Shown here one piece after another: positions 11,157 to 35,861 of a DNA stretch of 58,861 bases. The notes below the pieces were generated by a model. It did not search any database. It saw only the letters and a list, made by a program, of their open reading frames with translations, and was not told the DNA's origin. Within the stretch, counting starts at the first letter, position 1; each line of letters starts with the position of its first letter. The stretch is from Myxococcota bacterium (GTDB lineage: Bacteria > Myxococcota_A > UBA9160 > PR03): NCBI GenBank assembly GCA_028284525.1, contig JANQRO010000273.1:1-58861 (forward strand), read 5' to 3'. The position numbers and the translations under genes are program-made.

Positions 11157-11719
11157 ATTTATCCTTCTATTTCAGATGGTTAGAGAGATCGATTTTCGCT
11201 TGCGCCCACTCCGCGCCCAAAGTGGGTCGCTAGGGCTCGCGGAGACGAGGCCTCAAGACGTCGACGACTGCTTCTTGCAGATAGAAGCGTCCGTCCCGTT
11301 CAAACGCGGCTCTCGACCTCCTTCGCGAGATCCGAAGCAGACATGGAGAGCACCCCGGCGCACCTCCGGGCGCAGTGTTGGTGAGGTCCGCCGTGCTAGG
11401 GGTGCCGGCTCGAGGGGGTCCCGCCCCCCTCTCGTCGAGGCGCTGTTGGTCCATCGATTCGATGGATGAGTAGGTGTTAGGCGATCGCCTTCCAGTTGAT
11501 CTCGGTCCTCGCCCACGATCACGGCTCGATCGACTGCGCCTACTTCCTGCACAAAGAGGAGGACGTGGAGCATCGCGTGCATGCTGGCCCGATTTCGAGG
11601 ACGAACGCCGCGCGATCCATGACGTGGGGTAGCCGTTCCGCAGTGAGGCGTGCGACGCGCTGGAGGGTATGACACGCGGTCCCGTGAATCGCGCGTCACC
11701 CCGGGCCCGCAAGATCCCG

Positions 11720-12331
11720 TCACGCGCCGCCATCTTGGCGTTCGACCAGCGGTCTGAGGATTTCCTCGTACATGATTCGCTGAATCTTCGATCCACGCTC
11801 GTCGGCCCAATTCGTCGCGAGCTCTGCCATGAACTGGTTGGTCGACGTGATCGATACCCCGGCCTTCTCCATGCGTCGCACCGCGATGTCGTCCGCCGCT
11901 TGGGTGGGAGAACCACCGGCATCCACGACGACTTGGACGTCGTATCCCGCTTCGAAAGCGCTGATGGCGGGGAACACGACGCACACGTCGTTCGTTAGTC
12001 CGGCGATCACGAGCTGCTTTCGTTCGGTCGCTTGAACGGCGCTTGAGAAGTCCTCGTGCATCCACGCATCGACGATGCCCGGGCGTTTGATCCGCTGGTC
12101 GTAGGCTTTGGGCGCGATTTCCTTCAGGTCGTCGAGCAGCGGACCCTGGAACTGGTCCTCCTGGCTCGACGTCAAGACCAGCGGCATGCCCGTCTCAACT
12201 GCAGTTCGGGCCAGGGCCCGGGTGTTCTGCACGATCTCTTCGCGCGGGATGTTCCGAGCGAGCTTGATCGTTCCGACTTGGTGGTCGATGAGAAGCATTG
12301 CGGTGCTGTCCGGGGTGAACAAGTTCTTCAT
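11720..12331 (-). CDS. Isochorismatase-family cysteine hydrolase
   Basis: ATG at 12331 is preceded by AGGAGG. Translation reads MKNLFTPDSTAMLLIDHQ...VIAGLTNDVCVVFPA (catalytic Cys context). Confidence 0.8.
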   Translation of the reverse strand: MKNLFTPDSTAMLLIDHQVGTIKLARNIPREEIVQNTRALARTAVETGMPLVLTSSQEDQFQGPLLDDLKEIAPKAYDQRIKRPGIVDAWMHEDFSSAVQATERKQLVIAGLTNDVCVVFPAISAFEAGYDVQVVVDAGGSPTQAADDIAVRRMEKAGVSITSTNQFMAELATNWADERGSKIQRIMYEEILRPLVERQDGGA

Positions 12332-12615
12332 CGAAAGACCTCCTGGGTGTTCGATTTGCCGACTCATGAGACCACGCTACTCAAGGAGCGTACAAGGAGG
12401 GGCGCCTCGCTGGATCTTCCAACCAACCGATTGGAGCCATTGCCCCTCTCCTCCGACGACTGCTGTCTACGACAGGTCGACTCGTGGTCCTGGGTGTAGT
12501 TGGGAACGGCTTGTGTACCAAAGGACCTACCCCTGGCGAGGAACCGGTGCGCACGTTCCGCACCAACGAGGGCCTTGCCGAACTCGCGACTACGGCGCCG
12601 CAACGCCGCGAATCG

Positions 12616-13695
12616 TCAACGACCAACGATAGTACCGGCCCCGGTGGGGGAAGCGTCGGCCGCGTCCGTTGCCGGCGGTTTCTGTTCGGTGCGAAATCGC
12701 GGGAGGCATTCGGGATGGGAGGCCTGGAGATACGCGACGAGCTTTTCGCGGACTTCGCAGCGAAGCGCCCAGGCCACATCGGCGTTCGGCGCCGACACGA
12801 GGACACGGAGGCGCATCGTCAGTGGGCCCGCCTCCACCACCTGGAGGTTCCAGAACTCTCCGTCGAACTCCTGGCACTCGCTCAGGATCGACCCGACGGC
12901 GGCGCGGACCGTGGCGACAGGGGTTCGGTAGTCCACCTCGACGGTGAGAGCGCCGAGCAGGGCCGCGTCTCTCCGAGTCCAATTCTGGAAGGGCTCGGTG
13001 AGGAGAACGTGGAGCGGTACGATCAAGCGCCGGAGGTCCCAGAGCCGAACGACGATGTAGGTAGCCTCGATCTCCTCCACACGGCCCCACTCACCCTGGA
13101 TGACGACGACGTCGTCGAGCCGGACGGGCTGCGTCCACGCCAGCTGGACGCCGGCCATGAAGGCCTCCACGGTGGGCCGTGCGGCGATCCCGATGATGAT
13201 CCCCACGATTCCGGCTGAAGCCAAAAGACCGGCCCCCAGTGCGCGCATGCCCGGGAACGTCATCAGCGCCGCTGCGCCGCAGATCCCTATCGTTCCCACA
13301 ACGCCGAGGCGTCGGAGGACTTGGATGCGGGTTTGGACCTTACGCGCAAGGAGGTTGTCCGAGACATCCGTCGGGAACTGCTCTGAGACGAACGAGTCTG
13401 CGAAATTGAGCAGACCCACAAGACTCCACCCGACCGCTGAGATAAGAGCGAGCACCAGAGCACGACGCGCGACGTCAACCGCGGGGCCCGGCGAATCCCA
13501 GGCCAAGGGGAACGCGGAGCGAATGGCCAGGAGCGGCCCGAGCACAAGGAGCGCGCGGCCAATCGTGCGTACCAGCACGGTCGCGCTCTCCGGACGCTGG
13601 CGGCGCAGGGCCAACCAGAGGACCGCCACCACAAGGCCGGCGAGGGCGAGCCCGACTGCCGCCGCTGCTGCGAGCGTCGCGAACGCGTTGTCCAT
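12616..13695 (-). CDS. MscS-family mechanosensitive ion channel
   Basis: Shows the TM3 plus beta-domain pattern GIVGIIIGIAARPTVEAFMAGVQLAWTQPVRLDDVVVIQGEWGRVEEI. The start is set at ATG 13695 (GGGAG upstream). In-frame alternatives are 13707 and 13722. Confidence 0.8.
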   Translation of the reverse strand: MDNAFATLAAAAAVGLALAGLVVAVLWLALRRQRPESATVLVRTIGRALLVLGPLLAIRSAFPLAWDSPGPAVDVARRALVLALISAVGWSLVGLLNFADSFVSEQFPTDVSDNLLARKVQTRIQVLRRLGVVGTIGICGAAALMTFPGMRALGAGLLASAGIVGIIIGIAARPTVEAFMAGVQLAWTQPVRLDDVVVIQGEWGRVEEIEATYIVVRLWDLRRLIVPLHVLLTEPFQNWTRRDAALLGALTVEVDYRTPVATVRAAVGSILSECQEFDGEFWNLQVVEAGPLTMRLRVLVSAPNADVAWALRCEVREKLVAYLQASHPECLPRFRTEQKPPATDAADASPTGAGTIVGR

Positions 13696-13795
13696 CAGGG
13701 CTCCCATCGCGCCACCGGTCACTAGGCCGCGGCCCCCGACTCGGACCTAGCGTCCGGCCGCCCGGACCGTCTGGGCATTCTTCCGGTGGTCTAGA

Positions 13796-14772: not shown

Positions 14773-15654
14773 CTAGGTAGCGGGGCGTTCAAGCTCGAGA
14801 ACGGATCTCCCGTTGTCGAAGAGTGTGACCGTTCCGGAGGATTCAGAGATGGCAAAGGCGATGGCGTCCGTCACCCGCGTGATCGCGGCGGCGGCGGCGT
14901 GTCGGGCGCCGAGTCCGCGTCGCAGTCGCACGTTCTTGGTGGGCGCATCGAGATACGTACCGACGGACTCCACTACACCGTCTCGGTTGACGACCACGGC
15001 GCCGTCGAGCGCGCAGAATTCCCGCAGCGACTCTGCGAACTCCGGACTGTGGATGCTGCGCACGCGGCGCGCGTGTCCTTTGCACGGGTTGAGGATGAGC
15101 TGACGCAGGAAGGGCTCGAGCTGCTCCTTCGCGCCAAGGACGAAGATCGCACCGATGGGCTTGCCTTCGCGGCCCTGCGCGGCAAAGCGCAGCGCGAGCT
15201 CCAGCAGACGCCCGAATTCCTTGGGGCCCACCAGCCCCTTCGTGCGATCCAGGTCTTGGTTGCGAAGCCACGGGAAGTCGCGGTTGGGCTTCGTGACGAG
15301 CATCAGATCGAGCTGACCCGAACCCGCGATGCCGGACAGGCACATGACGGTTTCGTCGAGCTCGATGTAGCCGCGGAGGGTGGCCGAATAGAGTCCCAGA
15401 TTGATCTGACTCATTCGAGTGAGGTTGGCGCTGGGAATCGGGAGCACGAGGTCCCTCAGGCGACCGCTCGGGGTTTCTCCCTCGTCCCGAACGAGCCAGA
15501 TCAGCCGCTCGGGCACCCGATGGGCAAGCAGGAGCTGACTTTGCACTTCGTCGGCGAGGACGAGCGCCGTATGGATTCGCAGAGCCTCCGCGAGGGCGAA
15601 CGCGTGCGAGTTGAACGCCGCCGCTTCTTCTCGTCTCGACCGGACAAGCGCCAC
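14773..15654 (-). CDS. Soluble diadenylate cyclase (DAC/DisA_N domain) with an N-terminal regulatory domain, CdaZ/DacZ-like architecture
   Basis: The C-terminal half carries DAC motifs: GAIFVLG, DGAVVVNRDG, GLGARHAAAAAITRVTDAIAFAISESSGTVTLFDNG. There is no TM segment. About 150 aa precede the DAC domain. Confidence 0.75.
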   Translation of the reverse strand: MALVRSRREEAAAFNSHAFALAEALRIHTALVLADEVQSQLLLAHRVPERLIWLVRDEGETPSGRLRDLVLPIPSANLTRMSQINLGLYSATLRGYIELDETVMCLSGIAGSGQLDLMLVTKPNRDFPWLRNQDLDRTKGLVGPKEFGRLLELALRFAAQGREGKPIGAIFVLGAKEQLEPFLRQLILNPCKGHARRVRSIHSPEFAESLREFCALDGAVVVNRDGVVESVGTYLDAPTKNVRLRRGLGARHAAAAAITRVTDAIAFAISESSGTVTLFDNGRSVLELERPAT

Positions 15655-16128
15655 AGCGCCGCTCTACACTTCGGCCCGGCGCCGGATCGCAAAGGATGGT
15701 CGGGAAACGATTTGGAGGAACGTCGGGGAACCACGCGTCCTATCTGATGGTTAGGGACAATGCAATCGTAGGCCGTCCCGCGCGCTCGTACGAGGACGCC
15801 GCGGGAGGCCTAGCCATGGCGTCGGCGGCGTCGCGGTGCTCCCGCGAGGGCCATGGGGTTGATGTCCCCCTCGAGTGCGCGTGGATACGCGTCTCCGCTC
15901 CCACCATGCGCCCACTCCGCTCGACCGTCGGCGCGGTACGCTCCCTGCCGAAGAGGCTGTCGCATGAGCAGCATGGAACTCGGGGCGATTGGGGAGTTGA
16001 CCGGAGGTGTCGCCTTCTGGCGCTGCGGCAAGAACTTCATTGCATGCGACGGCACGGGGCCTACCAGCGCGCCCCGAAGCGTATCCTCTCACGCAGAAGG
16101 CTACTACGAGGGTCGGCCTTTGAAGAAT

Positions 16129-16323
16129 GTGAAACTCGTCCTCTGCGCCGTCCTTTTGGGCGTCCTGGTGATCTTCAGCGCGCAAAACCACGAGGTTGTT
16201 CGCGTTCAGTTCCTCTTTTGGTATGTCGAGATGTCAAGGGCCGTATTGCTTTTTCTCGTCCTCGCGATCGGATTTGTGATCGGTTGGACCTTCGAGAAGC
16301 TCTTACGTCGTCGGGCCAGGTAG
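16129..16323 (+). CDS. LapA/DUF1049-like small membrane protein
   Basis: GTG at 16129. Translation is VKLVLCAVLLGVLVIFSAQNHEVVRVQFLFWYVEMSRAVLLFLVLAIGFVIGW, a two-TM pattern. Confidence 0.45.
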   Translation: MKLVLCAVLLGVLVIFSAQNHEVVRVQFLFWYVEMSRAVLLFLVLAIGFVIGWTFEKLLRRRAR

Positions 16324-16331: not shown

Positions 16332-17996
16332 TCAACTTCCTCCGGACGCGGCGCCGGAGCTGGTGCCCTCCGCGACCCCCAGGTGGCCGCTCACCTGGAT
16401 CGACGCGAGGAAGCGGGCGCCGCGCTCGATCTGCTCAGCGACCCGCCGGACGTTGCTGAGCCAGTCGAGCAGCGTCACGAGGTCGTGCACCGGGACGGTA
16501 CCGTCGGACCCCGCCTTGAGAAGTGTTGCCTTGAGCTCTTGGTAGCGTTGCTGGAGGTCAGCCAACTCACCGGCCATGTTTCCCGCCGAGTACTCATCTA
16601 GATCGACACCGGCTCGCTCGACAATCGTCCGTGCCTCAGCGACGAACGCTTCTACGCTTTCGCTCAACGTGGCGCTCTTCAAGGGCCCCTGATCGGCTCG
16701 GCCAGAAACCACCATACTGGAAAGTTCAGCTGCCTCCGTGTAATAGCGCGAGACTCGAAACGCGGTCGGGAGGTGCAGCGCGATCTCCTCCGACAGACGC
16801 GTGCGCTGGAGCTGCTGGGCATAGCCTCCGACCGCTTCGACGAGCGCCGAAAGCGATTGCTGGCCCGCATTGACGGCTTCTCTCGCGCCTCTACCGCCGC
16901 TCAAGGCGACGCCCGCTAGGCGGCGCGCTATCTGCCCGACACGGGCGAGTTCGAGTCCGACGGCGTCCAGCGCCAACGCCGGCGTCGCGATGACGTTACG
17001 ATCGAGAAATCGCGGGGTCGCTTCGTCTTCTTCCAGGGTCCGAAAACGTCCCTCGAGAAACTTGAGGAGCCGACTTGTGAATGGCCATAGCACGGCGACT
17101 CCCAATAGGTTGAATACTGTATGGAAGCCGGCCAAGACGGCCGCCGGTTCGGCGTCGAGATTCAGCATCTGACGCCCGCGCACAATTGCGACCAAGAGGG
17201 CGGGTAGGAGCACCAACGCAACAGTCCCAGTGACAACGTTGAACACGACGTGTCCCGCCGCGACGCGTTTCGCATTCGGCGTCGCTCCGATTACGGCGAG
17301 CGCAGCAGTTGATGTCGTCCCAACATTCGCACCGATCACCAGAGCGGCCCCAGCACCCAGGGGCACGACTCCGCCACCGGTCGCCGTCAAGATTATCGCG
17401 ATGGCGGCACTCGAGGATTGCATGAGAACCGTCAAGCCAAAACCGATCGCCACAAACAGAACCGCTCGGAAGACTCCAGCGCCAACGAGCGCACCTAACT
17501 CGACGTGGCCGCTGAGGCCGTCGAACGCCAGCCGCAGAGCGTCGATCCCTAGAAAGAAGACACCAAAACCCGCGAGCGCTTCGCCAAGCGGCCCGAGGCG
17601 GGGGCCCCGAGAGAGAAGACGCAGCGCCATTCCAATTCCCACGAGGGGAAGCGCGAACGCCCGAACGTTCACGTGAAAGCCCACTGCAGCGACGAGCCAA
17701 CCCGTCGTGGTGGTCCCGATGTTGCTTCCGTAGGTGACCGCGATCGCTTGACTCAATGTCAACAAGCCCGCGTTCACAAAGCCGATCGTCGCCACGGTGA
17801 TCGCACTCGACGATTGCACAAAAGAGGTTACGAAGAACCCGGAGGCGACACCCCGCATTTGGGTGCGGGTCGACCGCACGAGCACCTCTCGCAACCCGCG
17901 CCCCGCCGCGACCTTAAGGCCCTCCGTCATGAGCCGCATACCCAGCAGAAAGAGACCAATCCCGCCGAGCAAACGCGCGCCAAGCTCCCAGGTCAC
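16332..17996 (-). CDS. Na/Pi cotransporter family protein with PhoU-like C-terminal domain
   Basis: Shows GGIGLFLLGMRLMTEGL...QSSSAITVATIGFV and the second repeat QSSSAAIAIILT. The GTG at 17996 has GGAG upstream. The track ORF starts at a TTG at 18044. Confidence 0.85.
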   Translation of the reverse strand: MTWELGARLLGGIGLFLLGMRLMTEGLKVAAGRGLREVLVRSTRTQMRGVASGFFVTSFVQSSSAITVATIGFVNAGLLTLSQAIAVTYGSNIGTTTTGWLVAAVGFHVNVRAFALPLVGIGMALRLLSRGPRLGPLGEALAGFGVFFLGIDALRLAFDGLSGHVELGALVGAGVFRAVLFVAIGFGLTVLMQSSSAAIAIILTATGGGVVPLGAGAALVIGANVGTTSTAALAVIGATPNAKRVAAGHVVFNVVTGTVALVLLPALLVAIVRGRQMLNLDAEPAAVLAGFHTVFNLLGVAVLWPFTSRLLKFLEGRFRTLEEDEATPRFLDRNVIATPALALDAVGLELARVGQIARRLAGVALSGGRGAREAVNAGQQSLSALVEAVGGYAQQLQRTRLSEEIALHLPTAFRVSRYYTEAAELSSMVVSGRADQGPLKSATLSESVEAFVAEARTIVERAGVDLDEYSAGNMAGELADLQQRYQELKATLLKAGSDGTVPVHDLVTLLDWLSNVRRVAEQIERGARFLASIQVSGHLGVAEGTSSGAASGGS

Positions 17997-18182
17997 GGCC
18001 GCTCCGATTTGCTTCTCACGCCCTCTGCAGGGAGGATACCTCAATCATGGGCGCGGCCGAGATCGGGCGCGGCCGTGTGGTCGTCTCGCCGAACTGGAAA
18101 CCTCTTCTTTTTGACCAGCGCGTTATCCGAGCGTGCGTACGAAGCGTTCCGGGCGCCATGCGAGACCTTGGAGTGGCGCGGT

Positions 18183-27219: not shown

Positions 27220-27312
27220 GAGCTCGATCCTCCACGCAGGCGGGCAATGATACGCTATCGCCCGCGCGGGAAGTCGATCCTGACTCCGCGGCGAGCGAGA
27301 GAAACATACACG

Positions 27313-28188: not shown

Positions 28189-28710
28189 CTACTCGACATC
28201 CTCGGGTCTGTCCGGTCGCAACCACGGCAATGTGTCTGAGACGGGCGGAGGGGACTCGCCGGGATCCACCAGATGAATGTCGAGGTGGCTCCTGGTTTCA
28301 TCATCGAAGAATCGCTGAGCGTACCGCCACCACTCCAGGCCGCCTGGCTCCTTGAGGAGTGCCAAGCAGAACGCTCCGCGGCGGTTCAATTCGATTCGAC
28401 TCTCCAGACCCCGTTGATGCATTTCCAACGTTTGTTCATAGTCCTCTACCAAGTGGGAGAGAATGATGCCAAACACCATCTTGTCTTGACTTCGAAGCTG
28501 GCTGAAATCGGCAAGTCCGGTTTGAACCACGGCCGGGTAGCGGGCGAGGCGATCGAGGTTTCGTTGAAAGGTGAGCCGGCCGTATTGGTGGATAAGGCCA
28601 AGGGCCAGCTCGCGGCCCCTTCGGATCTGCAGAGCGACGCAGAAGATTCCGACCGCCGCGGCGAAACCGCCGACACCGAACCCGAGAATGGCGAATTCCG
28701 AGGCGTTCAT
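28189..28710 (-). CDS. Hypothetical membrane-anchored protein
   Basis: ATG at 28710 with GAGGA upstream. There is one N-terminal TM helix (FAILGFGVGGFAAAVGIFCVAL). GC content is lower and the composition is protein-like. No family was recognised. Confidence 0.45.
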   Translation of the reverse strand: MNASEFAILGFGVGGFAAAVGIFCVALQIRRGRELALGLIHQYGRLTFQRNLDRLARYPAVVQTGLADFSQLRSQDKMVFGIILSHLVEDYEQTLEMHQRGLESRIELNRRGAFCLALLKEPGGLEWWRYAQRFFDDETRSHLDIHLVDPGESPPPVSDTLPWLRPDRPEDVE

Positions 28711-29187
28711 CGTTGAGTCCTCTCGATGGCGGAGAAATGTGTTGTCGCAGTGCGGCAGGCTGCCGCCGTCTCGCGAGAGCATCCGCCTCAGGCGCGGGAG
28801 CGCAAGCTCGGTCGACTCGTTGTCCGTGCCCCACACTTCTCGAGCCGCCCCGTTCGGGGTGGCTGTCGAAAGAGGCGCGATCGATTGCGGCCGGCTCCGA
28901 GACTCGATGCCCGACGGAAGCGGAAGTGGATGAGTCCGGTCGGGACCTCGCAGGCACGGTCGATCGTCTCGAGGAGGTCTGCGCCACCGCGGTCCACGCT
29001 TCGGCCCCCGAGCGAGCGTGGCTCGAGGACGGCGACCGGGCCTGGATGCCGCAGCGGGGGATGACGAGACAAAGCGCCACCCTGGGGCGGGCCGGCTTTG
29101 CACACGGGACCCGCTCCCGGAGCACCGAGGGCGAGTTCTACATCAGCCCCGACGGCCACGCCGCTGGCCGTTGTGAGGAGCGGTTTC

Positions 29188-30351
29188 GTGCCTAGCTGGG
29201 TCTCTGTTGCGGGGTGGCTCGACGCGCTCGATATCGCGCTCGTGGCCAGCTTCGTCTGGTTGGCGATCCGCTATTTCCGCCGTACACGCAGCCGCGCAGC
29301 CGCCGTCGGGCTCGCCTTGATCGCCGGCATCTACCTCGTGGCTCGAGCTCTCGACCTTGAGCTCACCGCTTCGATCTTGCAGGGGTTCTTCGCGGCGCTC
29401 GTACTCGTAGTCGTGGTGGTCTTTCAGGACGATCTTCGTCGCCTGTTCGAACAGCTCGGATCGTGGTGGCGTGGTCGCGAAACAGGAACCGCCGAGACGG
29501 AGACGCTGGATCAATTGGTTCGCGCCGTCGCGAGACTCGCCGGGTCGCGCACCGGCGCATTGATTGTGCTTGCCGGACAAGAACCGCTCGACCGCCACAC
29601 CGAAGGAGGCGTGGTGCTCGGCGGCCGGGTGAGCGAACCGCTCCTGTTGTCTCTCTTCGACGCTAGTTCTCCGGGTCACGACGGGGCGGTGGTTCTCGAC
29701 GGCCAGGACGTCGAACGCTTCGCGGTCCACCTCCCGCTGTCCGCCAACCGCGCGGCGCTCGGTCCTGGCGGCACCCGCCATGCGGCAGCTCTCGGACTCG
29801 CGGAGCGCTCGGACGCGATCTGCATCGCCGTCTCCGAGGAGCGGGGAACGGTCTCCGTCGCGCAGGACGGGGTGATCCGCACTCTCTCCCGCCCGGAGGA
29901 CCTGATCATCGAGTTGCGCGCGGCGTTTCGGGAAGAGCCGGAGAACCGGCAATGGTGGCAGGGCGGCATCGGTCTGGACGCCGCGGCGGCTATTCTCGTG
30001 GCTTTGCTCCTATGGGTCGTCTTCGTCCCCGGATCAGACCTGGACGAGGAGACCCTTTCGGTACCGGTCACCGTCTCGAACCTCCCGGATGATCTGGAGC
30101 TTGAGTCGGTGGAACCGGCGGCGCTCGATGTGACCTTCCGGGGGCTGCGCCGGGACCTGCTAGTCGCGCAACGCGGCGGGGTTTCGGTCCACATCGATGC
30201 CTATTTGGCGCGTCTGGGACGCCGTACCTTCACCGTCTCGGCACAGGATGTGAGAAAGCCCGAGTCGATTGCGGTGGTGACGGTGACACCGGAGAAAGTG
30301 CGCCTTTCCCTACGCGCTGCCAAGGGTGGCGACGGGGCGACACCTGAGTGA
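29188..30351 (+). CDS. cdaA: Membrane diadenylate cyclase CdaA fused to a YbbR (CdaR-like) domain
   Basis: GTG at 29188. N-terminal TM helices (WLDALDIALVASFVWLAIRYF...) precede the DAC motifs GALIVLAG, HDGAVVLDG and GTRHAAALGLAERSDAICIAVSEERGTVSVAQDG. An extra TM helix (AAAAILVALLLWVVFV) and a YbbR-like repeat (LSVPVTVSNLPDDLELESVEPAALDVTFRG...) follow. Confidence 0.8.
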   Translation: MPSWVSVAGWLDALDIALVASFVWLAIRYFRRTRSRAAAVGLALIAGIYLVARALDLELTASILQGFFAALVLVVVVVFQDDLRRLFEQLGSWWRGRETGTAETETLDQLVRAVARLAGSRTGALIVLAGQEPLDRHTEGGVVLGGRVSEPLLLSLFDASSPGHDGAVVLDGQDVERFAVHLPLSANRAALGPGGTRHAAALGLAERSDAICIAVSEERGTVSVAQDGVIRTLSRPEDLIIELRAAFREEPENRQWWQGGIGLDAAAAILVALLLWVVFVPGSDLDEETLSVPVTVSNLPDDLELESVEPAALDVTFRGLRRDLLVAQRGGVSVHIDAYLARLGRRTFTVSAQDVRKPESIAVVTVTPEKVRLSLRAAKGGDGATPE

Positions 30352-30451: not shown

Positions 30452-31477
30452 CTAGTTCAAAGCGTTGTCAGCGTCCGCAAGAACGCCTTGGAAATCTTCG
30501 ACGGAACTCGCGACCCTTCGAGGCGAATCGAACGCCGCGATGTGGAACAATCCGTCTCCCTCGTTGACAAGGGGAAGCTCGGTCCGTCCGATGATGACGC
30601 CATTGTGCGAAGCGACGACGGCCGATTCGTCCGCGCCGAGCGGGTCGCCGACCACACCGAGTTCGTCCCCGGTCTTGACGGGGGCTCCCAGTCGAGCCCG
30701 CCGCCGGAGAATCCCGCTCTCTGGTGCGCGCACCCAATGGCTGGACTGCGCGATGAACGGTTCGACGGAACGACGAGAGCGACCGGGATTGATCATTCCC
30801 AAGGCGCCCATCACCCGAAGCGTCCCCCGAACACCCGCCTGGATCGCTTCCTCGTCGAAACGAAGTGCCTCGCCGCCTTCGTACAAGAGCATTGGGATCC
30901 CTCGCTCCAGCACGGCCTGTCGAAGAGAGTTGTCGCGGAGGTTGGAGTTCACGATGACCGGCACACCAAACGCCCGAGCGAGACGTTCGGTTTCGGGGTC
31001 TTCGAGATAAGCCCGTAGCTGCGGAAGATTGGACCGATGGACCGCCGCGGTGTGGAGATCGACCCCGTGCGTCGCGTTCTCGACGACTTCCGAGATGAAT
31101 AGGTGTGCGAGCCTCGACGCGAGCGAACCTGTAGCGGAGCCTGGGAAAGAGCGATTGAGGTCCCGCCGATCGGGCAGGTAGCGCGAGAGCCCCACGAATC
31201 CGTACAGGTTCACGATTGGAACCGCGATCAGCGTCCCGCGGAGCCGGTCTAGGCTCCGGTGCGCCAGGACACGTCGAATGATCTCGACACCCGCGATTTC
31301 GTCGCCGTGAACCGCGGCGCAAACAAAGAGGCGAGGGCCTTCCAGCTTTCCGTTGACGACTTCGATCGGCAGGGCGATTTCGTTTCCACTCACGCGCTTT
31401 CCGAGCGGGATCTGGATCCGATGCCGTTCCCCACGCGGAACGGCGTTCCCAGCGATCACAACCTCGCCGTCAGCCAC
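30452..31477 (-). CDS. Succinylglutamate desuccinylase/aspartoacylase (AstE/AspA) family metallo-carboxypeptidase-like protein
   Basis: Shows AAVHGDEIAG, DLNRSFPG and VDLHTA zinc-ligand contexts. The start overlaps the stop of the upstream protease gene by 8 nt. Confidence 0.85.
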   Translation of the reverse strand: MADGEVVIAGNAVPRGERHRIQIPLGKRVSGNEIALPIEVVNGKLEGPRLFVCAAVHGDEIAGVEIIRRVLAHRSLDRLRGTLIAVPIVNLYGFVGLSRYLPDRRDLNRSFPGSATGSLASRLAHLFISEVVENATHGVDLHTAAVHRSNLPQLRAYLEDPETERLARAFGVPVIVNSNLRDNSLRQAVLERGIPMLLYEGGEALRFDEEAIQAGVRGTLRVMGALGMINPGRSRRSVEPFIAQSSHWVRAPESGILRRRARLGAPVKTGDELGVVGDPLGADESAVVASHNGVIIGRTELPLVNEGDGLFHIAAFDSPRRVASSVEDFQGVLADADNALN

Positions 31478-31937
31478 GGCTTGTCTTCTTGCGGGTCTTC
31501 TTCTTTCTCTTTTTCGGAGACTGGACCATGCGACGATCGGGATCGATCATGAAGGGCCCGGACAGTGCCGTTCGGCCCAAGAGCATCCGATGGATCATCC
31601 GGCCGCGATCGACCAGGCTGAGCTCAACCTTTCTTTCGACGCGGCCCAGCTTCATCGAGGTTTTGACGAAATAGCGTGTCTCGGTCTCGCCGTTGCTCGA
31701 GCGGACCCGGGAACGACGATGGATTGGCGCCACGACCCGGATTCGACGGTCTCGTTTCTCGCGGTGCAGCACGACGTCGAACCGGAGCCGCTTCCGCGGC
31801 AGCTCGACAATATTCTCCACGTGAAGCGCGCTCGTCCGCGCGCCGGTATCCACCTTCGCACGGAGACGGCGAACTCCCCAGTCGGGAAGGTCCACATACT
31901 CGGTCCAGCCGATGAGAACGGGCTCCTCGCGTACCAC
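31470..31937 (-). CDS. RimB-like retropepsin-fold 'ATP-dependent zinc protease' (PF05618-like)
   Basis: Reads IGWTEYVDLPDWGV.RLRAKVDTGARTSALH...LGRTAL. It has a strongly basic tail (KKRKKKTRKK). The start overlaps the rimK stop by 1 nt. Confidence 0.8.
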   Translation of the reverse strand: MVREEPVLIGWTEYVDLPDWGVRRLRAKVDTGARTSALHVENIVELPRKRLRFDVVLHREKRDRRIRVVAPIHRRSRVRSSNGETETRYFVKTSMKLGRVERKVELSLVDRGRMIHRMLLGRTALSGPFMIDPDRRMVQSPKKRKKKTRKKTSRG

Positions 31938-33172
31938 TATTCGCTCGGTACCGGATCAGCACCTTCGACGACGGGAAGGTCCGCTTTTCGGCGCTTTCTG
32001 CGCTTACGGCGCGGCGGGGCAAGACTCCGGAGGGTGAGCATCTTGCCAAAACAAAGCAGAATGTCGCCTGCGAGGATTTCACGGTCGTTGCGTGGGTTTG
32101 GGATCGAAACGCTATCGCGTTGGATCGTGAGGATGATTACATCCCGCTCGCGCAAGCCGGAACTCCGCACGGTCTTGCCGCACAGCTCCGATCGCTCGTC
32201 AACGGGCACCTCCATGACACCGTAGCCGCTTTGCAAGGTGAGACGCTGGCGAAGATCGATGTCGGGAAACAGCACCTCCTCCTCGATGAGGGCGATGATC
32301 TCACCCGCCACGTCGATTCCGGTTGCGCTCTCGATTCCTTCCAGCCCCGGCGAGGAGTTCACCTCCATGAGGACGGGCCCGTCCTTTCCCTCCAGCATGT
32401 CGACGCCGGCGACCCGGAGCCCCATAATTTGGGCGGCGTGGACGGCTACACGTTGGTATTCGTTGTCGAGATCGACGATCTCAGCCGACCCACCGCGGTG
32501 GATGTTGCTTCTAAACTCGTCCTCTTTCGCAGTGCGGCGCATCGCCGCGACGACGCGGGATCCCACCACGAACGCGCGAATGTCGCGGCCCTTGCTCTCT
32601 TTGACGAAGCGCTGCAACAACACGCTCATCTTCGCGGGCCCGGAGAGAGTCTCGATGATGGCTTCCGCGACATTGGTCGTGTCGGCAAGGATTACGCCGA
32701 CGCCCTGGGTGCCTTCCAGAAGCTTGATGACAACCGGTGTCCCGCCCATCCGTTCGATACCGGGGAGGATTTCGGACGTGTGACGGACGAAGAGCGTGGT
32801 AGGCATACCCACTCGATGGCGGCTCAGCGCCTGCAACGCGCGGAGTTTGTCTCGAGAGACTGAGATCGCGTGCGATGGATTGACACAAAAGACACCCATC
32901 TGCTCGAACTGGCGAACGACCGCCGTCCCGAACGACGTGATGGACGCGCCGATGCGGGGAATGACGGCGTCGTACTGCGTGAGCTTTTTGTTCTTGAAGT
33001 AGAGGCGAGGCGATCCGCTTTCCACTTCGATCGAGAAGGACAGGGTGTTCAGCACCTTGGCATCGTGCCCGCGCGCGGTTGCTGCCTCCCGCAGTCGCCG
33101 AGTGCTGTAAAGCCGCGGGCCACGCGAAAGGATCGCGATCTTTAGGGACTGGGCACTGCGAGGATCGTTCAT
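31937..33172 (-). CDS. rimK: RimK-type ATP-grasp alpha-L-glutamate ligase fused to a C-terminal TrkA_C (RCK_C) domain
   Basis: The ATP-grasp core reads VVIKLLEGTQGVGV...EVNSSPGLEGIE. About 110 extra residues follow (YGVMEVPVDERSELCGKTVRSSGLRERDVIILTIQRDSVSIPNPRNDREILAGDILLCFG), matching the RCK_C pattern. It ends in a basic tail RRKRRKRRK. Confidence 0.88.
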   Translation of the reverse strand: MNDPRSAQSLKIAILSRGPRLYSTRRLREAATARGHDAKVLNTLSFSIEVESGSPRLYFKNKKLTQYDAVIPRIGASITSFGTAVVRQFEQMGVFCVNPSHAISVSRDKLRALQALSRHRVGMPTTLFVRHTSEILPGIERMGGTPVVIKLLEGTQGVGVILADTTNVAEAIIETLSGPAKMSVLLQRFVKESKGRDIRAFVVGSRVVAAMRRTAKEDEFRSNIHRGGSAEIVDLDNEYQRVAVHAAQIMGLRVAGVDMLEGKDGPVLMEVNSSPGLEGIESATGIDVAGEIIALIEEEVLFPDIDLRQRLTLQSGYGVMEVPVDERSELCGKTVRSSGLRERDVIILTIQRDSVSIPNPRNDREILAGDILLCFGKMLTLRSLAPPRRKRRKRRKADLPVVEGADPVPSE

Positions 33173-33299: not shown

Positions 33300-33653
33300 A
33301 TGCTAGATGATTCGAAACATCTCGCCATCTTCCCCAAGCGGCTCCGTGCTGCTCGAGAGTTGAGGGAACTCAGCCAGATGGACCTCGCCGAGCGGGCGAG
33401 GTTGCAGCAGACGGCCGTGTCACTCTACGAGAGCGGGGCCCGCCGGCCGTCCTTGAGGAACCTGCGCAGGCTCTCTGAGGCGCTTGAGGTTACGACGGAC
33501 TACTTGGTGGGACGATCCGCGAGCCCGGGGGCGCTCCCGTCACCCGATGAGCGGCTCTTTAGGGACTTCGAGCGACTCACGACCGCGGATCGCGAGCTCG
33601 CCCGCGAGCTCGTCGCTCAGCTAGCGCGTCGGTCTGGTCCCGGAGGAGTTTGA
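33300..33653 (+). CDS. XRE-family helix-turn-helix transcriptional regulator
   Basis: LRAARELRELSQMDLAERARLQQTAVSLYESGARRPSLRNLRRLSEALEVTTDYLVG is a canonical HTH_3 domain. It carries a 45-aa C-terminal extension. Confidence 0.85.
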   Translation: MLDDSKHLAIFPKRLRAARELRELSQMDLAERARLQQTAVSLYESGARRPSLRNLRRLSEALEVTTDYLVGRSASPGALPSPDERLFRDFERLTTADRELARELVAQLARRSGPGGV

Positions 33654-33656
33654 CGC

Positions 33657-34001
33657 TTGGAAGTTGTACGCACCGGCGAGGCGATTCATATCATCGAGCG
33701 CCGACTGTTCTCCGAAGCCGTGCGGCGCCATTTTGTGGGAGAGGTGCTCGCTACGTCCGACCGGCCACTTCGCGTGCGCGGGTACCTGTTCGTTTACGAC
33801 ACGAGCGCCAGCACGTTCTCGAGAAAACCGGAACTCCGTACCCGAATCGTCTCCTTGGACAACCGTGTAGTCGTCAACGTTCTACCGAGCAGCGTCGACG
33901 TGAACTCCGTCCGCTACGCGCGGGATTCGGACGGAAACCTCACCCTCACCGACAACTTCGAGCTCGACCTCGATATCAGCGAGTTCAGCACAAGGGAGTA
34001 G
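33657..34001 (+). CDS. Hypothetical 114-aa protein coupled to the XRE gene
   Basis: TTG start 9 nt after GGAGGA and 3 nt after the XRE stop. The paralog relic at 13796-13989 differs mainly at synonymous positions (IVSLDNRV is encoded by atc gtc tcc ttg gac aac cgt gta versus atc gtt tca ctc gac aat cgc gtg). This supports a real coding gene. Confidence 0.6.
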   Translation: MEVVRTGEAIHIIERRLFSEAVRRHFVGEVLATSDRPLRVRGYLFVYDTSASTFSRKPELRTRIVSLDNRVVVNVLPSSVDVNSVRYARDSDGNLTLTDNFELDLDISEFSTRE

Positions 34002-34046
34002 CGGCCTCTCCGACGTCCGGGGCGCCAATACCAGGAACTCGGCGCG

Positions 34047-35012
34047 CTACTCGATCACATGGACAGGGGTTGGGCCTGAGGCACGACGTTGCGGCGACAC
34101 GTGCCCGATAGGCCCCCCGTTGCGCCCCGTCGCATGGTGGCTCGGACGCGCCATGTCTTCGGGTAGCGCTGGGCCAGACGCCTCGCGCTCCAGATCTTCG
34201 ATCCAGGCCTCGTCCTCAAACCAGAACTCGCGAATCTTCTCGAGGCCGCCGTTGAGGTGAAGCGCCTCGAGGTAGTTCTCGAGGAGGTTCGCGAGCAATG
34301 TGTCCTCGGGTGGTATTGCGATGCCCATTGGCTCGACCGTGAGTGTCTCTTCCAGGTGCTCGAGATCTGCGTCGGGGTGTTGGAGGCGGGCCAGGGCGCA
34401 GGTCTGATAATCGGCAATGACCGCGTCGACCCGATCGGACAGCAGCATCGCGATCGCTTCGCGAAGGCGCTCGGGTCGCTCCAGCTTCGCTCTGGGTGCG
34501 ACGTTCTCCACGAACTCTTCGCTCGTGGAACCCGCGAGCGCCGCAAGCCGGACCTCGGGTCGATTGAGGTCGGCGATTCCGCGCAGCCGCCCGATCGCGG
34601 CGTGTTTCGCAAGAATCGATTTGCCCGAGACAAAATAGGGCCCGATAAACGCCGCTCGCTGGTTGCGACGCGCATTGATCGTCATCCCCGACATCACTAC
34701 ATCCACTTCGCCGGCCGCCAGTGCGTCCAGAAGGCGAAAGAACGGACGCTCCACGATCTCGGCTCGGACGCGTAGGTTCTTCGCCAGAACGTTTACCACC
34801 GCGACCTCGAAGCCCAGCCACTCGCCTTCCTCCGTGAGAAAATTCAAAGGCGGCTGGTCGCCGCTCATCCCGACACGCAACACACCCGAGGAAGCCACGC
34901 GCGGCAACCCACGCGTCTCGGGAGGATCGCTCTCTATCGAGGTGCGCGATGCCTGACAGCCTGCAAAAACCACGACGATCGCGAGCCCGAGGCCAACTAC
35001 CAACGGATTCAC
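34047..35012 (-). CDS. Family-3 (amino-acid type) ABC transporter substrate-binding lipoprotein, orphan
   Basis: GTG at 35012 gives the signal VNPLVVGLGLAIVVVFAGC. The SBP_bac_3 pattern reads LRVGMSGDQPPLNF...VDVVMSGMTINARRN...AVIADYQT. No permease or ATPase gene is adjacent. Confidence 0.75.
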   Translation of the reverse strand: MNPLVVGLGLAIVVVFAGCQASRTSIESDPPETRGLPRVASSGVLRVGMSGDQPPLNFLTEEGEWLGFEVAVVNVLAKNLRVRAEIVERPFFRLLDALAAGEVDVVMSGMTINARRNQRAAFIGPYFVSGKSILAKHAAIGRLRGIADLNRPEVRLAALAGSTSEEFVENVAPRAKLERPERLREAIAMLLSDRVDAVIADYQTCALARLQHPDADLEHLEETLTVEPMGIAIPPEDTLLANLLENYLEALHLNGGLEKIREFWFEDEAWIEDLEREASGPALPEDMARPSHHATGRNGGPIGHVSPQRRASGPTPVHVIE

Positions 35013-35861
35013 GCACGTCGCGCTGTCGACCGTGGAACCACGGGTACGCGAGGAAGAGGAACCGAGAATCTGATCCAAGTCAACGCCCCGTTGCGATCGC
35101 GGACAGTGGAAAGGAGTAGCGCTGATCGATTGGTGGGTCCACGTCGGCCTAAGATCCCGACCTTGCGATGACGTCACTCAACAAGTGAGGAATCAATAGG
35201 TCCAGAGCCGATCTCTCAAGAAATCGATCGGCCGCGAATCGCACTCAAATCGGAATTCTCGCCGGCGAGGTCATCGCCGATCGGCGAGTATGGAACGACA
35301 AACCGATCGCGCTGACCACGGGCGCTGCGTCCGTGCAGGTCCGTGCCGATCGGAAACGAACGCTCGCTTCGTTCCTCCATTCCGCGATCCGCGCTCACCT
35401 GGCGAGACTGAGGGGACATCGAGGCTCGAGCGGAGTTATGTCGCCGATCACAGTGACGCCGGTCGCCAGCGGAGCCGGCTCTCGTAGGTTGAGCAGCTGA
35501 GATGGTTCAACTGCGCGGCGACCCCTTTTGCGAAGCGCTTCGACGCGGCTCGTTCTCCCTACGGCAGGCGTTCTCGTTGCGCGGTCGCGGCGGCCTCGCC
35601 AGATTCGACATTGCTTCTGCTCCGAGAGAAACGCTTCCAAGCCTCGATCTCAAGTAGTCGTCCGACGCTCCGCCAGGTCGGTGAGGCGAACAGCTGGTTT
35701 TGCTCGCTGGGCTGCCACGGTTGGGGCGGCTTCATGTAGAACGCAATCGTGCGTAGCCACCCGGAGGGCGCTCGGCGGCCTCGTTCGAGCGTGCGCCCAC
35801 TCCACGCCCACATCTCCGGAAAGAAAATTGAACCGAATCGATTACTTAGAGGATTGACCGC

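What the first reader, a model, noticed from the sequence alone, without database searches (positions are those of the whole stretch)
11157..35861. Island cargo looks like a horizontally carried c-di-AMP plus ion/osmotic homeostasis module
One 24.7-kb island carries two diadenylate cyclases (14773-15654 soluble, 29188-30351 membrane-bound). Around them is a dense set of channels and transporters: two MscS-type channels, two CaCA exchangers, a Na/Pi cotransporter, CorC/CNNM, DAACS and MgtE. Several proteins carry the two domain classes known to bind c-di-AMP in Firmicutes. The first class is RCK_C/TrkA_C, here fused to RimK. The second is CBS pairs, here in CorC, MgtE and the stand-alone MgtE_N-CBS protein. 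Established knowledge is that c-di-AMP controls K+, osmolyte and possibly Mg2+ transport through RCK_C and CBS receptors. My inference is that this island is a self-contained second-messenger regulon, with cyclases and candidate effectors moving together. I am not aware of this having been described as a mobile unit. No phosphodiesterase (GdpP, PgpH or DhhP type) is seen in the island.
Basis: partly seen in the sequence, partly recalled or inferred. Interest (0 to 1): 0.8.

Follow-up and report, generated by a model that had tools for sequence, protein, structure and literature searches.

The report
tmRNA island carrying c-di-AMP/ion-homeostasis genes
A 24.7-kb foreign DNA island inserted at the tmRNA gene carries two c-di-AMP synthases packed among magnesium, calcium, phosphate and mechanosensitive channel genes; about a third of this gene set recurs as an ordinary chromosomal cluster in related bacteria, which points to an untested link between c-di-AMP, Mg2+ transport and a ribosome-modifying enzyme.

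Summary
Window 11157-35861 lies between an intact tmRNA gene and an exact 27-nt copy of its 3' end. Its codon-position-3 G+C (GC3) is 0.755, against 0.92 in the core genes to its left. It encodes a soluble DacZ-like cyclase, a membrane CdaA-like cyclase, one MscS channel, one small MscS-related protein, two CaCA exchangers, a Na/Pi cotransporter, CorC, an SDF carrier, MgtE, a stand-alone MgtE_N-CBS protein and RimK fused to TrkA_C.

- Seven island genes (rimK-TrkA_C, rimB, astE, the MscS-like gene, mgtE_N-CBS, mgtE, cdaA) form one operon-like run in a 4.5-Mb Myxococcota-like genome. Subsets recur in other relatives, and a Planctomycetota contig carries both cyclase types.
- These clusters sit in the chromosome. 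None is next to a tmRNA gene, and none lies on the 3' (integration) side of a tRNA gene.
- NaPi, SDF, isochorismatase and the solute-binding protein were not found next to the cyclases or rimK elsewhere. A CaCA exchanger was, in two places.
- The island has no integrase, no phosphodiesterase, no K+ transporter and no c-di-AMP riboswitch. It is therefore neither self-contained nor demonstrably mobile now.

A c-di-AMP link to osmotic homeostasis is known, and so is a dacZ-mscS operon. The RimK(RCK_C)-CdaA-MgtE linkage appears unreported in the literature searched. Ligand binding remains untested.

The parts
10792..11156 (+). tmRNA gene (ssrA), tag ADDNYALAA. Its last 27 nt (11130-11156) form the attL core.
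   Evidence: ARAGORN. Rfam RF00023, 150 bits, full length. Repeat search.
11720..12367 (-). Isochorismatase-family hydrolase, the first island gene. The 563-bp gap before it has no integrase trace.
   Evidence: Pfam. ORFs 11230-11922 and 11253-12065 give no family.
12616..13722 (-). MscS-family mechanosensitive channel, 368 aa.
   Evidence: PF00924, E 1.3e-11. Several TM segments.
14773..15654 (-). Soluble DacZ-like diadenylate cyclase: a DacZ_P-like N-domain plus a DAC domain.
   Evidence: PF02457, E 7e-22. NCBIfam DacZ model 100 bits, below its cut-off. PF21755 E 0.14 here, but 32.6 bits in the L036 homolog. AF2 pLDDT 85, with DAC folds on top in the PDB search. No TM.
15853..16323 (+). Small LapA_dom membrane protein next to the DacZ-like gene.
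   Evidence: PF06305. A LapA_dom gene is also near the DAC in L084 and near rimK in L168.
16332..18044 (-). Na+/Pi cotransporter family protein.
   Evidence: PF02690, E 3.5e-48, 2 stretches.
18183..19205 (-). CaCA (Na_Ca_ex) exchanger 1.
   Evidence: PF01699, 2 stretches.
19809..20990 (+). CaCA (Na_Ca_ex) exchanger 2.
   Evidence: PF01699, 2 stretches.
21076..21522 (+). Aldehyde dehydrogenase gene fragment (a remnant).
   Evidence: PF00171, profile positions 287-393 of 461 only.
21834..23330 (-). CorC/CNNM-type divalent cation transporter with a CBS pair.
   Evidence: PF01595, PF00571 x2 and PF03471.
23297..24838 (+). Sodium:dicarboxylate symporter family (DAACS) carrier.
   Evidence: PF00375, E 1e-108.
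25091..26399 (-). MgtE Mg2+ channel (MgtE_N, CBS pair, TM domain), read in two frames with the shift in a C8 run near 25613-25620.
   Evidence: Pfam. tblastn of the L168 MgtE: N-terminal part 50% identity in frame -3, TM part 84% in frame -1. Sequence read.
26389..27321 (-). Stand-alone cytosolic MgtE_N + CBS-pair protein.
   Evidence: Pfam. 46% identical to the equivalent gene of L168.
27313..28143 (+). Small MscS-related membrane protein (PF05552 TM-helix repeats only).
   Evidence: Pfam. 60% identical to the 276-aa gene of L168. The same gene lies next to MgtE_N-CBS in L173.
28189..29103 (-). ORF of unknown function. Weak coding signal, so it may not be a gene.
   Evidence: No Pfam or NCBIfam hit. 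No counterpart in any fetched locus.
29188..30351 (+). Membrane CdaA-like diadenylate cyclase: 3 TM, DAC, a fourth TM and a weak YbbR-like tail.
   Evidence: PF19293 + PF02457; YbbR E 0.19. TIGR00159 163 bits, below its cut-off of 188.8. HDGA, TRHA and SEE motifs. TM scan.
30452..31477 (-). AstE/AspA-family zinc deacylase or carboxypeptidase-like protein; third gene of the rimK operon.
   Evidence: PF24827. Found next to rimK-TrkA_C in 36 of 80 metagenome loci.
31470..31937 (-). RimB-like retropepsin-type endopeptidase.
   Evidence: PF05618. NCBIfam RimB 100.8 bits, below its cut-off. Next to rimK in 61 of 80 loci.
31937..33172 (-). RimK alpha-L-glutamate ligase fused to a C-terminal TrkA_C (RCK_C) domain.
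   Evidence: PF18030, PF08443 and PF02080, E 4e-10. NCBIfam PRK10446 333.2 bits against a cut-off of 331.
33300..34001 (+). HTH_3 (XRE-type) regulator followed by a 114-aa ORF of unknown function.
   Evidence: Pfam.
34047..35177 (-). Orphan family-3 periplasmic solute-binding protein (amino-acid type).
   Evidence: PF00497. NCBIfam amino-acid SBP models, all below cut-off.
35862..35888 (+). Exact 27-nt direct repeat of the tmRNA 3' end: the distal boundary (attR) of the island.
37979..38443 (-). Third, degenerate att copy (37979-38005, 3 mismatches), followed by a tyrosine-integrase C-terminal fragment read towards it. This is the remnant of an older element. A Porin_O_P gene (36032-37792) lies between the second and third att copies.
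   Evidence: PF00589 profile positions 106-168 of 172, E 6.6e-5, below cut-off. Sequence read.

Best explanation
**What it is.** The segment is an integrase-less genomic island, probably no longer mobile. It inserted into the 3' end of the tmRNA gene and is the member of a decayed tandem array of ssrA insertions that lies nearest the tmRNA gene, which suggests it is the youngest.

**Cargo.** The cargo is a divalent-cation and osmotic homeostasis gene set built from two pieces.

- Right half (25.1-33.2 kb). This is a rearranged copy of a gene cluster that is chromosomal in related Myxococcota-like genomes. The cluster consists of rimK(RCK_C)-rimB-astE, a small MscS-related protein, a stand-alone MgtE_N-CBS protein, MgtE, and a CdaA-type cyclase with a YbbR-like tail.
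- Left half (11.7-24.8 kb). This places a DacZ-like soluble cyclase among an MscS channel, two CaCA exchangers, a Na/Pi cotransporter, CorC and an SDF carrier.

**Proposed working (inferred, not shown).** The two cyclases make c-di-AMP in response to membrane or turgor signals and to metabolic signals. The candidate sensors are the CdaA TM/YbbR part and the DacZ_P domain. The nucleotide then acts on neighbouring proteins through their CBS pairs (MgtE, MgtE_N-CBS, CorC) and through the RCK_C tail of RimK. This would coordinate Mg2+ flux, solute release and glutamate ligation (S6 glutamylation or poly-alpha-glutamate) during osmotic shifts.

**Shown here.** The domains, the island boundaries, the compositional difference and the recurrence of the linkage.

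**Inferred.** Cyclase activity, every ligand-receptor contact and the physiological role.
For: **Island**
- The exact 27-nt att repeat occurs at 11130 and 35862, and a third copy with 3 mismatches at 37979. None is expected by chance.
- GC3 is 0.755 (0.675-0.818) in island genes and 0.92 (0.889-0.945) in core genes.
- Contig L167 is 86% identical to the window across 726-11160 (apart from a small indel near 8.8 kb) and diverges exactly at the end of the tmRNA.
- A separate (Logan) assembly of run SRR20820731 has a contig spanning window 14344-35891, ending at the att copy.

**Conserved linkage**
- L168 is a 4.54-Mb genome with GC 0.64, like the island. It carries the seven genes in one direction with small gaps. 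Identities to the window are RimK 85%, RimB 80%, AstE 76%, MscS-like 60%, MgtE TM part 84%, CdaA 63%.
- L171 has rimK-rimB-astE-cdaA with MscS and CorA upstream.
- L087 has rimK followed by cdaA.
- L173 has cdaA flanked by MgtE x2, MgtE_N-CBS, the MscS-like gene, CorC and MgtC.
- At least 10 contig lengths occur in both the RimK and the CdaA top-120 hit lists. This suggests the two genes share those contigs, and three cases are confirmed directly: the window, L168 and L171.
- Planctomycetota L036 has both cyclase types plus DHH, CorC, MscS, RimK-TrkA_C and AstE within 11 kb.
- L012 and L082 place the DacZ-like gene among MscK, CorA, CNNM, TerC and Na/H exchangers.

**Published context**
- H. 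volcanii dacZ is in an operon with mscS2, and low c-di-AMP impairs hypo-osmotic adaptation (PMC6741144).
- RCK_C domains of KtrC, CpaA and KhtT bind c-di-AMP. MgtE is listed as a binder of unknown effect (PMC10636490).
- The residues mutated as catalytic in Leptospira CdaA (D of DGA, first R of RHR, S222; PMC12974146) are present in both window cyclases.
Against: - No integrase, excisionase or transfer gene lies inside the island. No second copy of the island was found anywhere: the exact-sequence look-ups of the DacZ-like protein and RimK return only this contig (RimK) or this contig plus its Logan counterpart.
- The DacZ-like gene's neighbourhood is conserved in only about 6 of 80 genome loci.
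- Among 80 more distant rimK-TrkA_C loci, cdaA was adjacent in 1 and the DacZ-like gene in 0. CorA (9), MscS (5) and MgtE (2) were commoner. RCK_C on RimK therefore does not need a neighbouring cyclase.
- L169 and L170 carry rimK-rimB-astE without any DAC within 10 kb.
- The closest CdaA homolog (76%, L172) sits in an unrelated context.
- Both cyclases read RHA instead of RHR. The effect of that single change is unknown.
- MgtE may be a pseudogene.
- The left junction rests on one MAG contig.
Confidence: 0.35

Rival explanations
1. A plain salinity or ion-stress fitness island. The transporters and channels were collected because each helps on its own in a saline habitat. The two cyclases are passengers that feed the host's existing c-di-AMP network and have no special relation to their island neighbours.
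For: - NaPi, SDF, isochorismatase and the SBP are never linked to either cyclase or to rimK elsewhere, and a CaCA gene is linked in only two places.
- The island carries no phosphodiesterase, K+ transporter or riboswitch.
- The island carries decayed genes.
Against: Seven island genes, cdaA among them, recur together in L168. Subsets recur in L171, L173, L087 and, across phyla, in L036, with differing gene orders. That pattern is hard to obtain without selection for linkage.
Confidence: 0.25
2. The linkage is real but reflects co-regulation, not ligand-receptor pairing. The RCK_C tail of RimK and the CBS pairs sense K+, Mg2+ or ATP, as in CorC/CNNM and MgtE. cdaA is simply expressed under the same Mg2+ or osmotic regime.
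For: - rimK-TrkA_C is far more often next to CorA, MscS or MgtE than next to a cyclase.
- From my own recall, not checked here: the CBS pairs of MgtE and CorC bind Mg2+/ATP in solved systems.
- L169 and L170 lack any DAC nearby.
Against: - Two unrelated cyclase types (CdaA-like and DacZ-like) each end up beside rimK-astE in different phyla.
- RCK_C is the best-documented c-di-AMP receptor fold (PMC10636490).
Confidence: 0.3
3. Not an island. Either the contig is a metagenomic mis-join at the conserved tmRNA 3' end, or the region is native chromosome with atypical composition.
For: - The left junction is seen only in the MAG contig. The Logan contig starts at about 14344.
- L167 gives only 245 bp past the tmRNA.
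- There is no integrase in the segment.
Against: - Three ordered att copies lie on one contig, and their identity falls with distance from the tmRNA (27/27, then 24/27). An integrase remnant is read towards the third copy.
- GC3 climbs back towards core values at the right end of the contig (0.87).
- A mis-join between two ssrA loci would still leave the segment sitting at an ssrA site.
Confidence: 0.1

Closest known systems
tRNA/tmRNA-targeting genomic islands (for example CP4-57 at E. coli ssrA; recalled from memory, not tested here)
   Same: Insertion at the 3' end of ssrA. A direct repeat of the gene's 3' end at the far boundary. Deviant composition. Tandem accretion, with older and more degenerate att copies further from the gene.
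   Different: No integrase or any other mobility gene inside the 24.7-kb segment. The only integrase trace is a C-terminal fragment belonging to an older element.
Haloarchaeal dacZ-mscS2 operon and the DacZ/CdaZ cyclase class (PMC6741144)
   Same: A soluble DAC with an N-terminal DacZ_P/PK_C-like domain. Genomic association with MscS-family channels and a link to osmoregulation.
   Different: Bacterial, and only 100 bits on the NCBIfam DacZ equivalog model (cut-off 430). RHA instead of RHR. Here the MscS gene is about 1 kb away on the same strand, with a small ORF between, rather than a demonstrated operon partner. The neighbourhood is much wider (CorA/CorC/MgtE/CaCA/Na-H exchangers).
Firmicute cdaA-cdaR-glmM module and its c-di-AMP targets (KtrA/C, CpaA, KhtT, OpuCA, DarB, MgtE; PMC10636490)
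   Same: A 3-TM CdaA with HDGA. A YbbR-type regulatory element. Candidate receptors of the RCK_C and CBS classes. MgtE among the neighbours.
   Different: YbbR is a weak fused tail, not a separate cdaR gene. No glmM. No K+ or compatible-solute transporter, no PII-like DarA, no phosphodiesterase and no ydaO riboswitch in the island. TIGR00159 scores below its cut-off.
Pseudomonas rimABK system: RimK glutamylates ribosomal protein S6, RimB is a protease, and c-di-GMP stimulates RimK
   Same: rimK with an adjacent rimB-like retropepsin gene. RimK reaches the NCBIfam S6-glutamate ligase equivalog cut-off. There is a precedent for a cyclic dinucleotide controlling RimK.
   Different: No rimA (EAL) gene. 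An AstE/AspA-type gene takes its place. RimK carries an extra RCK_C domain. The neighbouring cyclase makes c-di-AMP, not c-di-GMP.

Membership tests
tmRNA-integrating genomic island | Lies immediately 3' of an intact tRNA/tmRNA gene, and the gene's 3' end is repeated at the distal boundary. | tested here: met
   The tmRNA ends at 11156. The exact 27-nt repeat is at 35862-35888, with 0 expected by chance.
tmRNA-integrating genomic island | Encodes its own tyrosine (or serine) integrase next to an att site. | tested here: not met
   No Phage_integrase hit for any ORF in 11157-35861, including the boundary gaps. Only a sub-threshold C-terminal fragment at about 38040-38443, outside the segment.
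tmRNA-integrating genomic island | Composition differs from the host core, and the segment is absent from a close relative at that site. | tested here: met
   GC3 0.755 against 0.92, with non-overlapping ranges. L167, 86% identical, diverges at window 11160, but only 245 bp of it are available beyond that point.
DacZ/CdaZ-class diadenylate cyclase | DAC domain with DGA and RHR motifs. | tested here: inconclusive
   PF02457, E 7e-22. DGA, R251 and H252 are conserved across 26 homologs. The third residue is Ala across the family, giving RHA.
DacZ/CdaZ-class diadenylate cyclase | N-terminal DacZ_P / PK_C-like sensor domain and no TM segments. | tested here: inconclusive
   PF21755 E 0.14 over residues 14-121 in the window protein, but 32.6 and 29.4 bits in homologs at 50-51% identity. 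One homolog has a weak PK_C hit. The AF2 N-domain is alpha/beta with pLDDT around 80. The fold search was dominated by the DAC domain. No TM.
DacZ/CdaZ-class diadenylate cyclase | Reaches the NCBIfam DacZ equivalog score. | tested here: not met
   100.1 bits against a cut-off of 430. It is DacZ-like in architecture, not an ortholog of haloarchaeal DacZ.
CdaA-type diadenylate cyclase | Three N-terminal TM helices (CdaA_N) plus a DAC domain with HDGA. | tested here: met
   PF19293 + PF02457. The GHDGAV motif. TM scan.
CdaA-type diadenylate cyclase | TIGR00159 equivalog score, GXRHRXA motif and cdaA-cdaR-glmM context. | tested here: not met
   163.4 bits against a cut-off of 188.8. The motif reads GTRHAAA. 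There is no glmM. YbbR is only a weak fused tail, E 0.19.
RimK (S6 alpha-L-glutamate ligase) with RimB | Rimk_N + RimK ATP-grasp reaching the equivalog score, with an adjacent rimB-like peptidase. | tested here: met
   PRK10446 333.2 bits against a cut-off of 331. PF05618 in the adjacent gene. RimB is adjacent in 61 of 80 related loci. The substrate was not tested.
c-di-AMP signalling module (cyclase + degrading enzyme + receptors) | Receptor-class domains (RCK_C, CBS pair) in neighbouring proteins. | tested here: met
   TrkA_C on RimK. CBS x2 in CorC, MgtE and the stand-alone MgtE_N-CBS protein.
c-di-AMP signalling module (cyclase + degrading enzyme + receptors) | A phosphodiesterase (GdpP, DhhP or PgpH), a c-di-AMP riboswitch, or an established target transporter (Ktr/Trk/Kdp/KimA/Opu). 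| tested here: not met
   No DHH, DHHA1 or HD hit, and no K+ or osmolyte transporter family in the island. No ydaO family hit. L036 does carry a DHH gene beside cdaA.
c-di-AMP signalling module (cyclase + degrading enzyme + receptors) | Actual c-di-AMP synthesis, and binding to the candidate receptors. | not testable with these tools
   Needs enzyme assays and DRaCALA or ITC.
MscS mechanosensitive channel | MscS beta-domain (PF00924) after the pore-lining helix. | tested here: met
   Met for 12616-13722. Not met for 27313-28143, which has PF05552 only and sub-threshold NCBIfam 'msc'.

The most novel reading that the evidence does not exclude
In Myxococcota- and Planctomycetota-like bacteria, c-di-AMP signalling is wired to Mg2+ homeostasis and to ribosome or poly-glutamate chemistry. 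The RCK_C tail of RimK and the stand-alone MgtE_N-CBS protein would be new c-di-AMP receptors. CdaA or DacZ-like output would then gate MgtE and CorC and switch RimK-dependent glutamylation during osmotic or Mg2+ stress. The whole circuit can be passed between genomes as island cargo.
Probability: 0.2. Interest if true: 0.75.

Novelty: new variant of a known kind. Interest (0 to 1): 0.5.

Why it matters
c-di-AMP biology rests almost entirely on Firmicutes, Actinobacteria and a few cyanobacteria and archaea. Its targets in diderm phyla such as Myxococcota and Planctomycetota are essentially unknown.

Cyclase genes sit repeatedly beside MgtE, a stand-alone MgtE_N-CBS protein, CorC/CorA, MscS-family proteins and an RCK_C-tagged RimK. 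That pattern yields a short, concrete list of candidate receptors that can be tested by binding assays.

It also points to Mg2+, rather than K+, as the ion most often linked to the messenger in these lineages. This would connect with the open question of what c-di-AMP binding does to MgtE.

The RimK link would parallel c-di-GMP control of RimK in Pseudomonas.

The island itself shows that such a circuit can be acquired horizontally, but only as one decayed instance.

Tried and rejected
- **GluR0-like channel.** I considered whether the SBP_bac_3 protein (34047-35177) is a glutamate-gated channel, because Pfam reported a long stretch. NCBIfam aligns it contiguously to ordinary periplasmic amino-acid binding proteins, and it has only one N-terminal hydrophobic segment. 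Rejected.
- **The 711-aa ORF 26008-28143 as a large MscS.** Rejected. Its N-terminal two-thirds run antisense to the MgtE_N-CBS gene.
- **A tRNA-SeC island in L169.** The rimK cluster lies on the 5' side of that tRNA, so it is not in an island of the usual kind.
- **Integrase remnants in the island's boundary gaps and in ORFs 38584-39741.** None found.
- **ydaO/kimA riboswitch.** None found.
- **Fold search of the full DacZ-like model.** It returned only DAC-domain hits, so it did not test the N-domain fold.
- **Sequence inspection of the RimK RCK_C against the c-di-AMP-contacting positions of KtrA, from memory.** The shared residues are general RCK_C consensus, so nothing could be concluded.
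- **Host taxon.** It could not be established. The nearest RimK and CdaA homologs that carry a name are labelled Myxococcota/Myxococcales. The nearest DacZ-like homologs carry mixed MAG labels (Planctomycetota, Deltaproteobacteria, Gemmatimonadota).
- **Pfam.** It failed on a wrong frame and was repeated.

Full report
**1. What is in the window**

The window is a whole 58,861-bp MAG contig. Positions 1-10.5 kb have 70-73% G+C. They carry core genes: TolB, PanC, a 155-aa gene whose counterpart in L167 is called SmpB, and a GDP-mannose dehydratase-like gene.

A full-length tmRNA gene lies at 10792-11156. From there G+C drops to 62-67%.

The last 27 nt of the tmRNA recur exactly at 35862-35888 and with three mismatches at 37979-38005. 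No such match is expected by chance.

A contig from a related genome (L167, GCA_905148055.1) is 86% identical to the window across 726-11160, apart from a small indel near 8.8 kb. It diverges at precisely the tmRNA end.

Third-position G+C (GC3) by region:

| Region | Genes | GC3 mean | Range |
|---|---|---|---|
| Left core (0.1-10.5 kb) | 8 | 0.92 | 0.889-0.945 |
| Island (11.7-35.2 kb) | 19 | 0.755 | 0.675-0.818 |
| 36-49 kb | 8 | 0.815 | 0.753-0.914 |
| Right end (49-59 kb) | 6 | 0.87 | 0.837-0.886 |

A separate (Logan) assembly of run SRR20820731 has a contig covering window 14344-35891. It stops at the second att copy.

So 11157-35861 is a compositionally foreign segment bounded by att repeats at ssrA.

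Beyond it lies a 2.1-kb piece with a phosphate-porin gene. Then comes the degenerate third att copy, followed by a C-terminal fragment of a tyrosine integrase read towards that copy. This is the layout expected for an older element pushed away by later insertions.

Inside the 24.7-kb segment I found no integrase or other mobility gene. This includes the 563-bp gap after the tmRNA and the gap before 35862.

**2.

Pfam confirms every item. Three corrections are needed.

- The second 'MscS-type channel' is a 276-aa protein (27313-28143). It has only the PF05552 TM-helix repeats.
- MgtE (26399 to 25091, minus strand) is split between two frames at a C8 homopolymer. It is either broken or mis-called by sequencing.
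- An aldehyde dehydrogenase fragment sits at 21076-21522.

The soluble cyclase is DacZ-like.
- NCBIfam's best model for it is DacZ, well below the equivalog cut-off.
- Homologs carry the DacZ_P sensor domain.
- The AF2 model has pLDDT 85 and a DAC fold.

The membrane cyclase has CdaA_N, DAC, a fourth TM segment and a weak YbbR-like tail.

Both cyclases keep DGA, the Arg and His of RHR, and the SE(E/S) serine. These include the positions mutated as catalytic in Leptospira CdaA (PMC12974146). Both have Ala at the third RHR position. In the DacZ-like family that Ala is conserved across homologs, so it is not a sign of decay. The only mutagenesis I read changed all three residues at once (PMC3328451), so the effect of this single change is unknown.

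The island has no phosphodiesterase, no K+ or compatible-solute transporter, no PII-like receptor and no c-di-AMP riboswitch.

**3. Does the gene set recur?**

*Starting from the DacZ-like protein.* I fetched 80 genome loci with 10-kb flanks and searched them with the island proteins.
- NaPi, SDF, MscS1, isochorismatase, the SBP and the porin were never nearby. A CaCA exchanger was nearby in L005 only.
- About six loci, all among the closer relatives, carry ion-homeostasis neighbours.
  - L036 (labelled Phycisphaerae) has DHH, CdaA-YbbR, CorC, an 845-aa MscS, RimK-TrkA_C, AstE, the DacZ-like gene, an MFS carrier and CorA.
  - L012 has a Na/H exchanger with TrkA_N, an MgtE fragment, the DacZ-like gene, AstE, RimK-TrkA_C, MscK, CorA and CorC.
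  - L082 has RimB-like, MscK, CNNM, TerC, a Na/H exchanger, the DacZ-like gene, CorA and MscK.
  - L084 has LapA_dom, CaCA, the DacZ-like gene and MgtE.

*Starting from RimK-TrkA_C.* I fetched 80 metagenome loci.
- RimB was adjacent in 61 and AstE in 36. The three genes are therefore a widespread operon.
- CorA was adjacent in 9, MscS in 5, MgtE in 2, CdaA in 1 and the DacZ-like gene in 0.

*The closest RimK homologs (78-87% identity).* Those that carry a name are labelled Myxococcota. They are more informative.
- L168 is a 4.54-Mb genome whose local G+C (0.64) matches the island. It has CNNM, then rimK-TrkA_C > rimB > astE > MscS-like > mgtE_N-CBS > mgtE > cdaA, with SDF and LapA_dom genes within 10 kb.
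- L171 has CorA and MscS, then rimK > rimB > astE > cdaA.
- L087 has rimK followed by cdaA. L088 has mgtE beside rimK. L089 has MscS, rimK and CorA.
- L169 has MscS-CorA-MscS-rimK-rimB-astE without a cyclase. L170 has the trio alone.

*Starting from CdaA.*
- At least ten contig lengths occur in both the RimK and the CdaA top-120 hit lists. This suggests shared contigs. Three cases are confirmed directly: the window, L168 and L171.
- L173 places cdaA among MgtC, two MgtE genes, MgtE_N-CBS, the MscS-like gene, CorC and a second RimK-related ATP-grasp/AstE-like set.
- The closest CdaA homolog (L172, 76%) is in an unrelated context.

*tRNA and tmRNA genes.* None of the loci scanned has a tmRNA gene. 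L169 has a tRNA-SeC, but the rimK cluster lies on its 5' side.

**4. Reading**

The right half of the island (25.1-33.2 kb) is a rearranged copy of a gene cluster that is chromosomal in relatives. The left half is a looser collection around the DacZ-like gene. It resembles some, but not most, neighbourhoods of that gene elsewhere.

The recurrent theme is divalent-cation transport (MgtE, CorA, CorC/CNNM, MgtC) plus MscS-family proteins. K+ is not the theme.

Published work supplies a frame in which the linkage makes sense.
- dacZ forms an operon with mscS2 in Haloferax, with an osmotic phenotype (PMC6741144).
- RCK_C domains are c-di-AMP receptors, and MgtE is a binder of unknown consequence (PMC10636490).

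I found no paper that links RimK to c-di-AMP. I also found none that describes a diadenylate cyclase as genomic-island cargo, among the hits that I examined.

It is unsupported for most of the rest.

'Self-contained' fails, because the island has no degrading enzyme and no established target. 'Mobile unit' holds only in the sense that this one copy arrived as island cargo. It has no means of moving now, and no second copy was found.

**5. Limits**

- The taxon of the host is not established.
- The left junction rests on one assembly.
- Adjacency counts among close relatives are not phylogenetically independent.
- tblastn with island proteins misses very divergent family members.
- No tool here can test nucleotide binding or enzyme activity.

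Noticed in passing
window 35862-41000: A decayed tandem array at ssrA. It runs: second att copy, a lone Porin_O_P gene (36032-37792), third att copy (37979-38005), an integrase C-terminal fragment (about 38040-38443, minus strand), and a possible fourth, very degenerate att trace at 40949-40964.
   Followed up: partly
window 25608-25655: The MgtE reading frame shifts inside a run of eight C. The same fragmentary MgtE gene call appears in the Logan assembly of SRR20820731. I cannot tell a pseudogene from a homopolymer error or slippage.
   Followed up: partly
window 51711-56769: A DabA/DabB-type inorganic carbon transporter pair (DabA 51711-54536; Proton_antipo_M subunit 54235-55779, minus strand) sits next to a divergent LysR regulator (55864-56769).
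   Followed up: no
window 44189-49137: A catalase-peroxidase-like gene (753 aa), DUF2141, a TetR regulator and a Rieske ring-hydroxylating oxygenase alpha subunit. The region has intermediate GC3 and may be further island material.
   Followed up: no
window 8740-8918 versus L167 2501-3909: The relative L167 has a universal stress protein (Usp) gene between the dTDP-sugar isomerase and the matrixin-like gene. The window lacks it.
   Followed up: no
L036 98-2707: In the Planctomycetota contig, a DHH-family protein (a possible DhhP-type phosphodiesterase) lies directly beside a CdaA with a clearer YbbR tail (E 6e-6). Synthesis and probable degradation are therefore linked there, unlike in the window.
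   Followed up: no
L173 12904-17908: Near cdaA and mgtE there is a second kind of glutamate-ligase set: a RimK-related ATPgrasp_ST protein, a 7TM transglutaminase-like protein and an AstE/AspA-like protein. ATP-grasp/AstE pairs of two types thus associate with cdaA.
   Followed up: no
L172 8281-11161 and L173 8328-11173: In both loci a sigma54-dependent activator gene lies immediately upstream of cdaA and divergent from it. This hints at sigma54 control of cdaA in that lineage. The window has no such gene.
   Followed up: no
window 33300-34001: An XRE-type HTH gene is followed 3 bp later by a 114-aa ORF with no family hit. It could be a regulator pair or a toxin-antitoxin-like module at the island's right end.
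   Followed up: no
L082 1-2848: Upstream of the ion-channel cluster around the DacZ-like gene lie a MATCAP (PF08014) protein, a RimB-like peptidase and a PP2C phosphatase fused to a cNMP-binding domain. No rimK is in view on that stretch.
   Followed up: no
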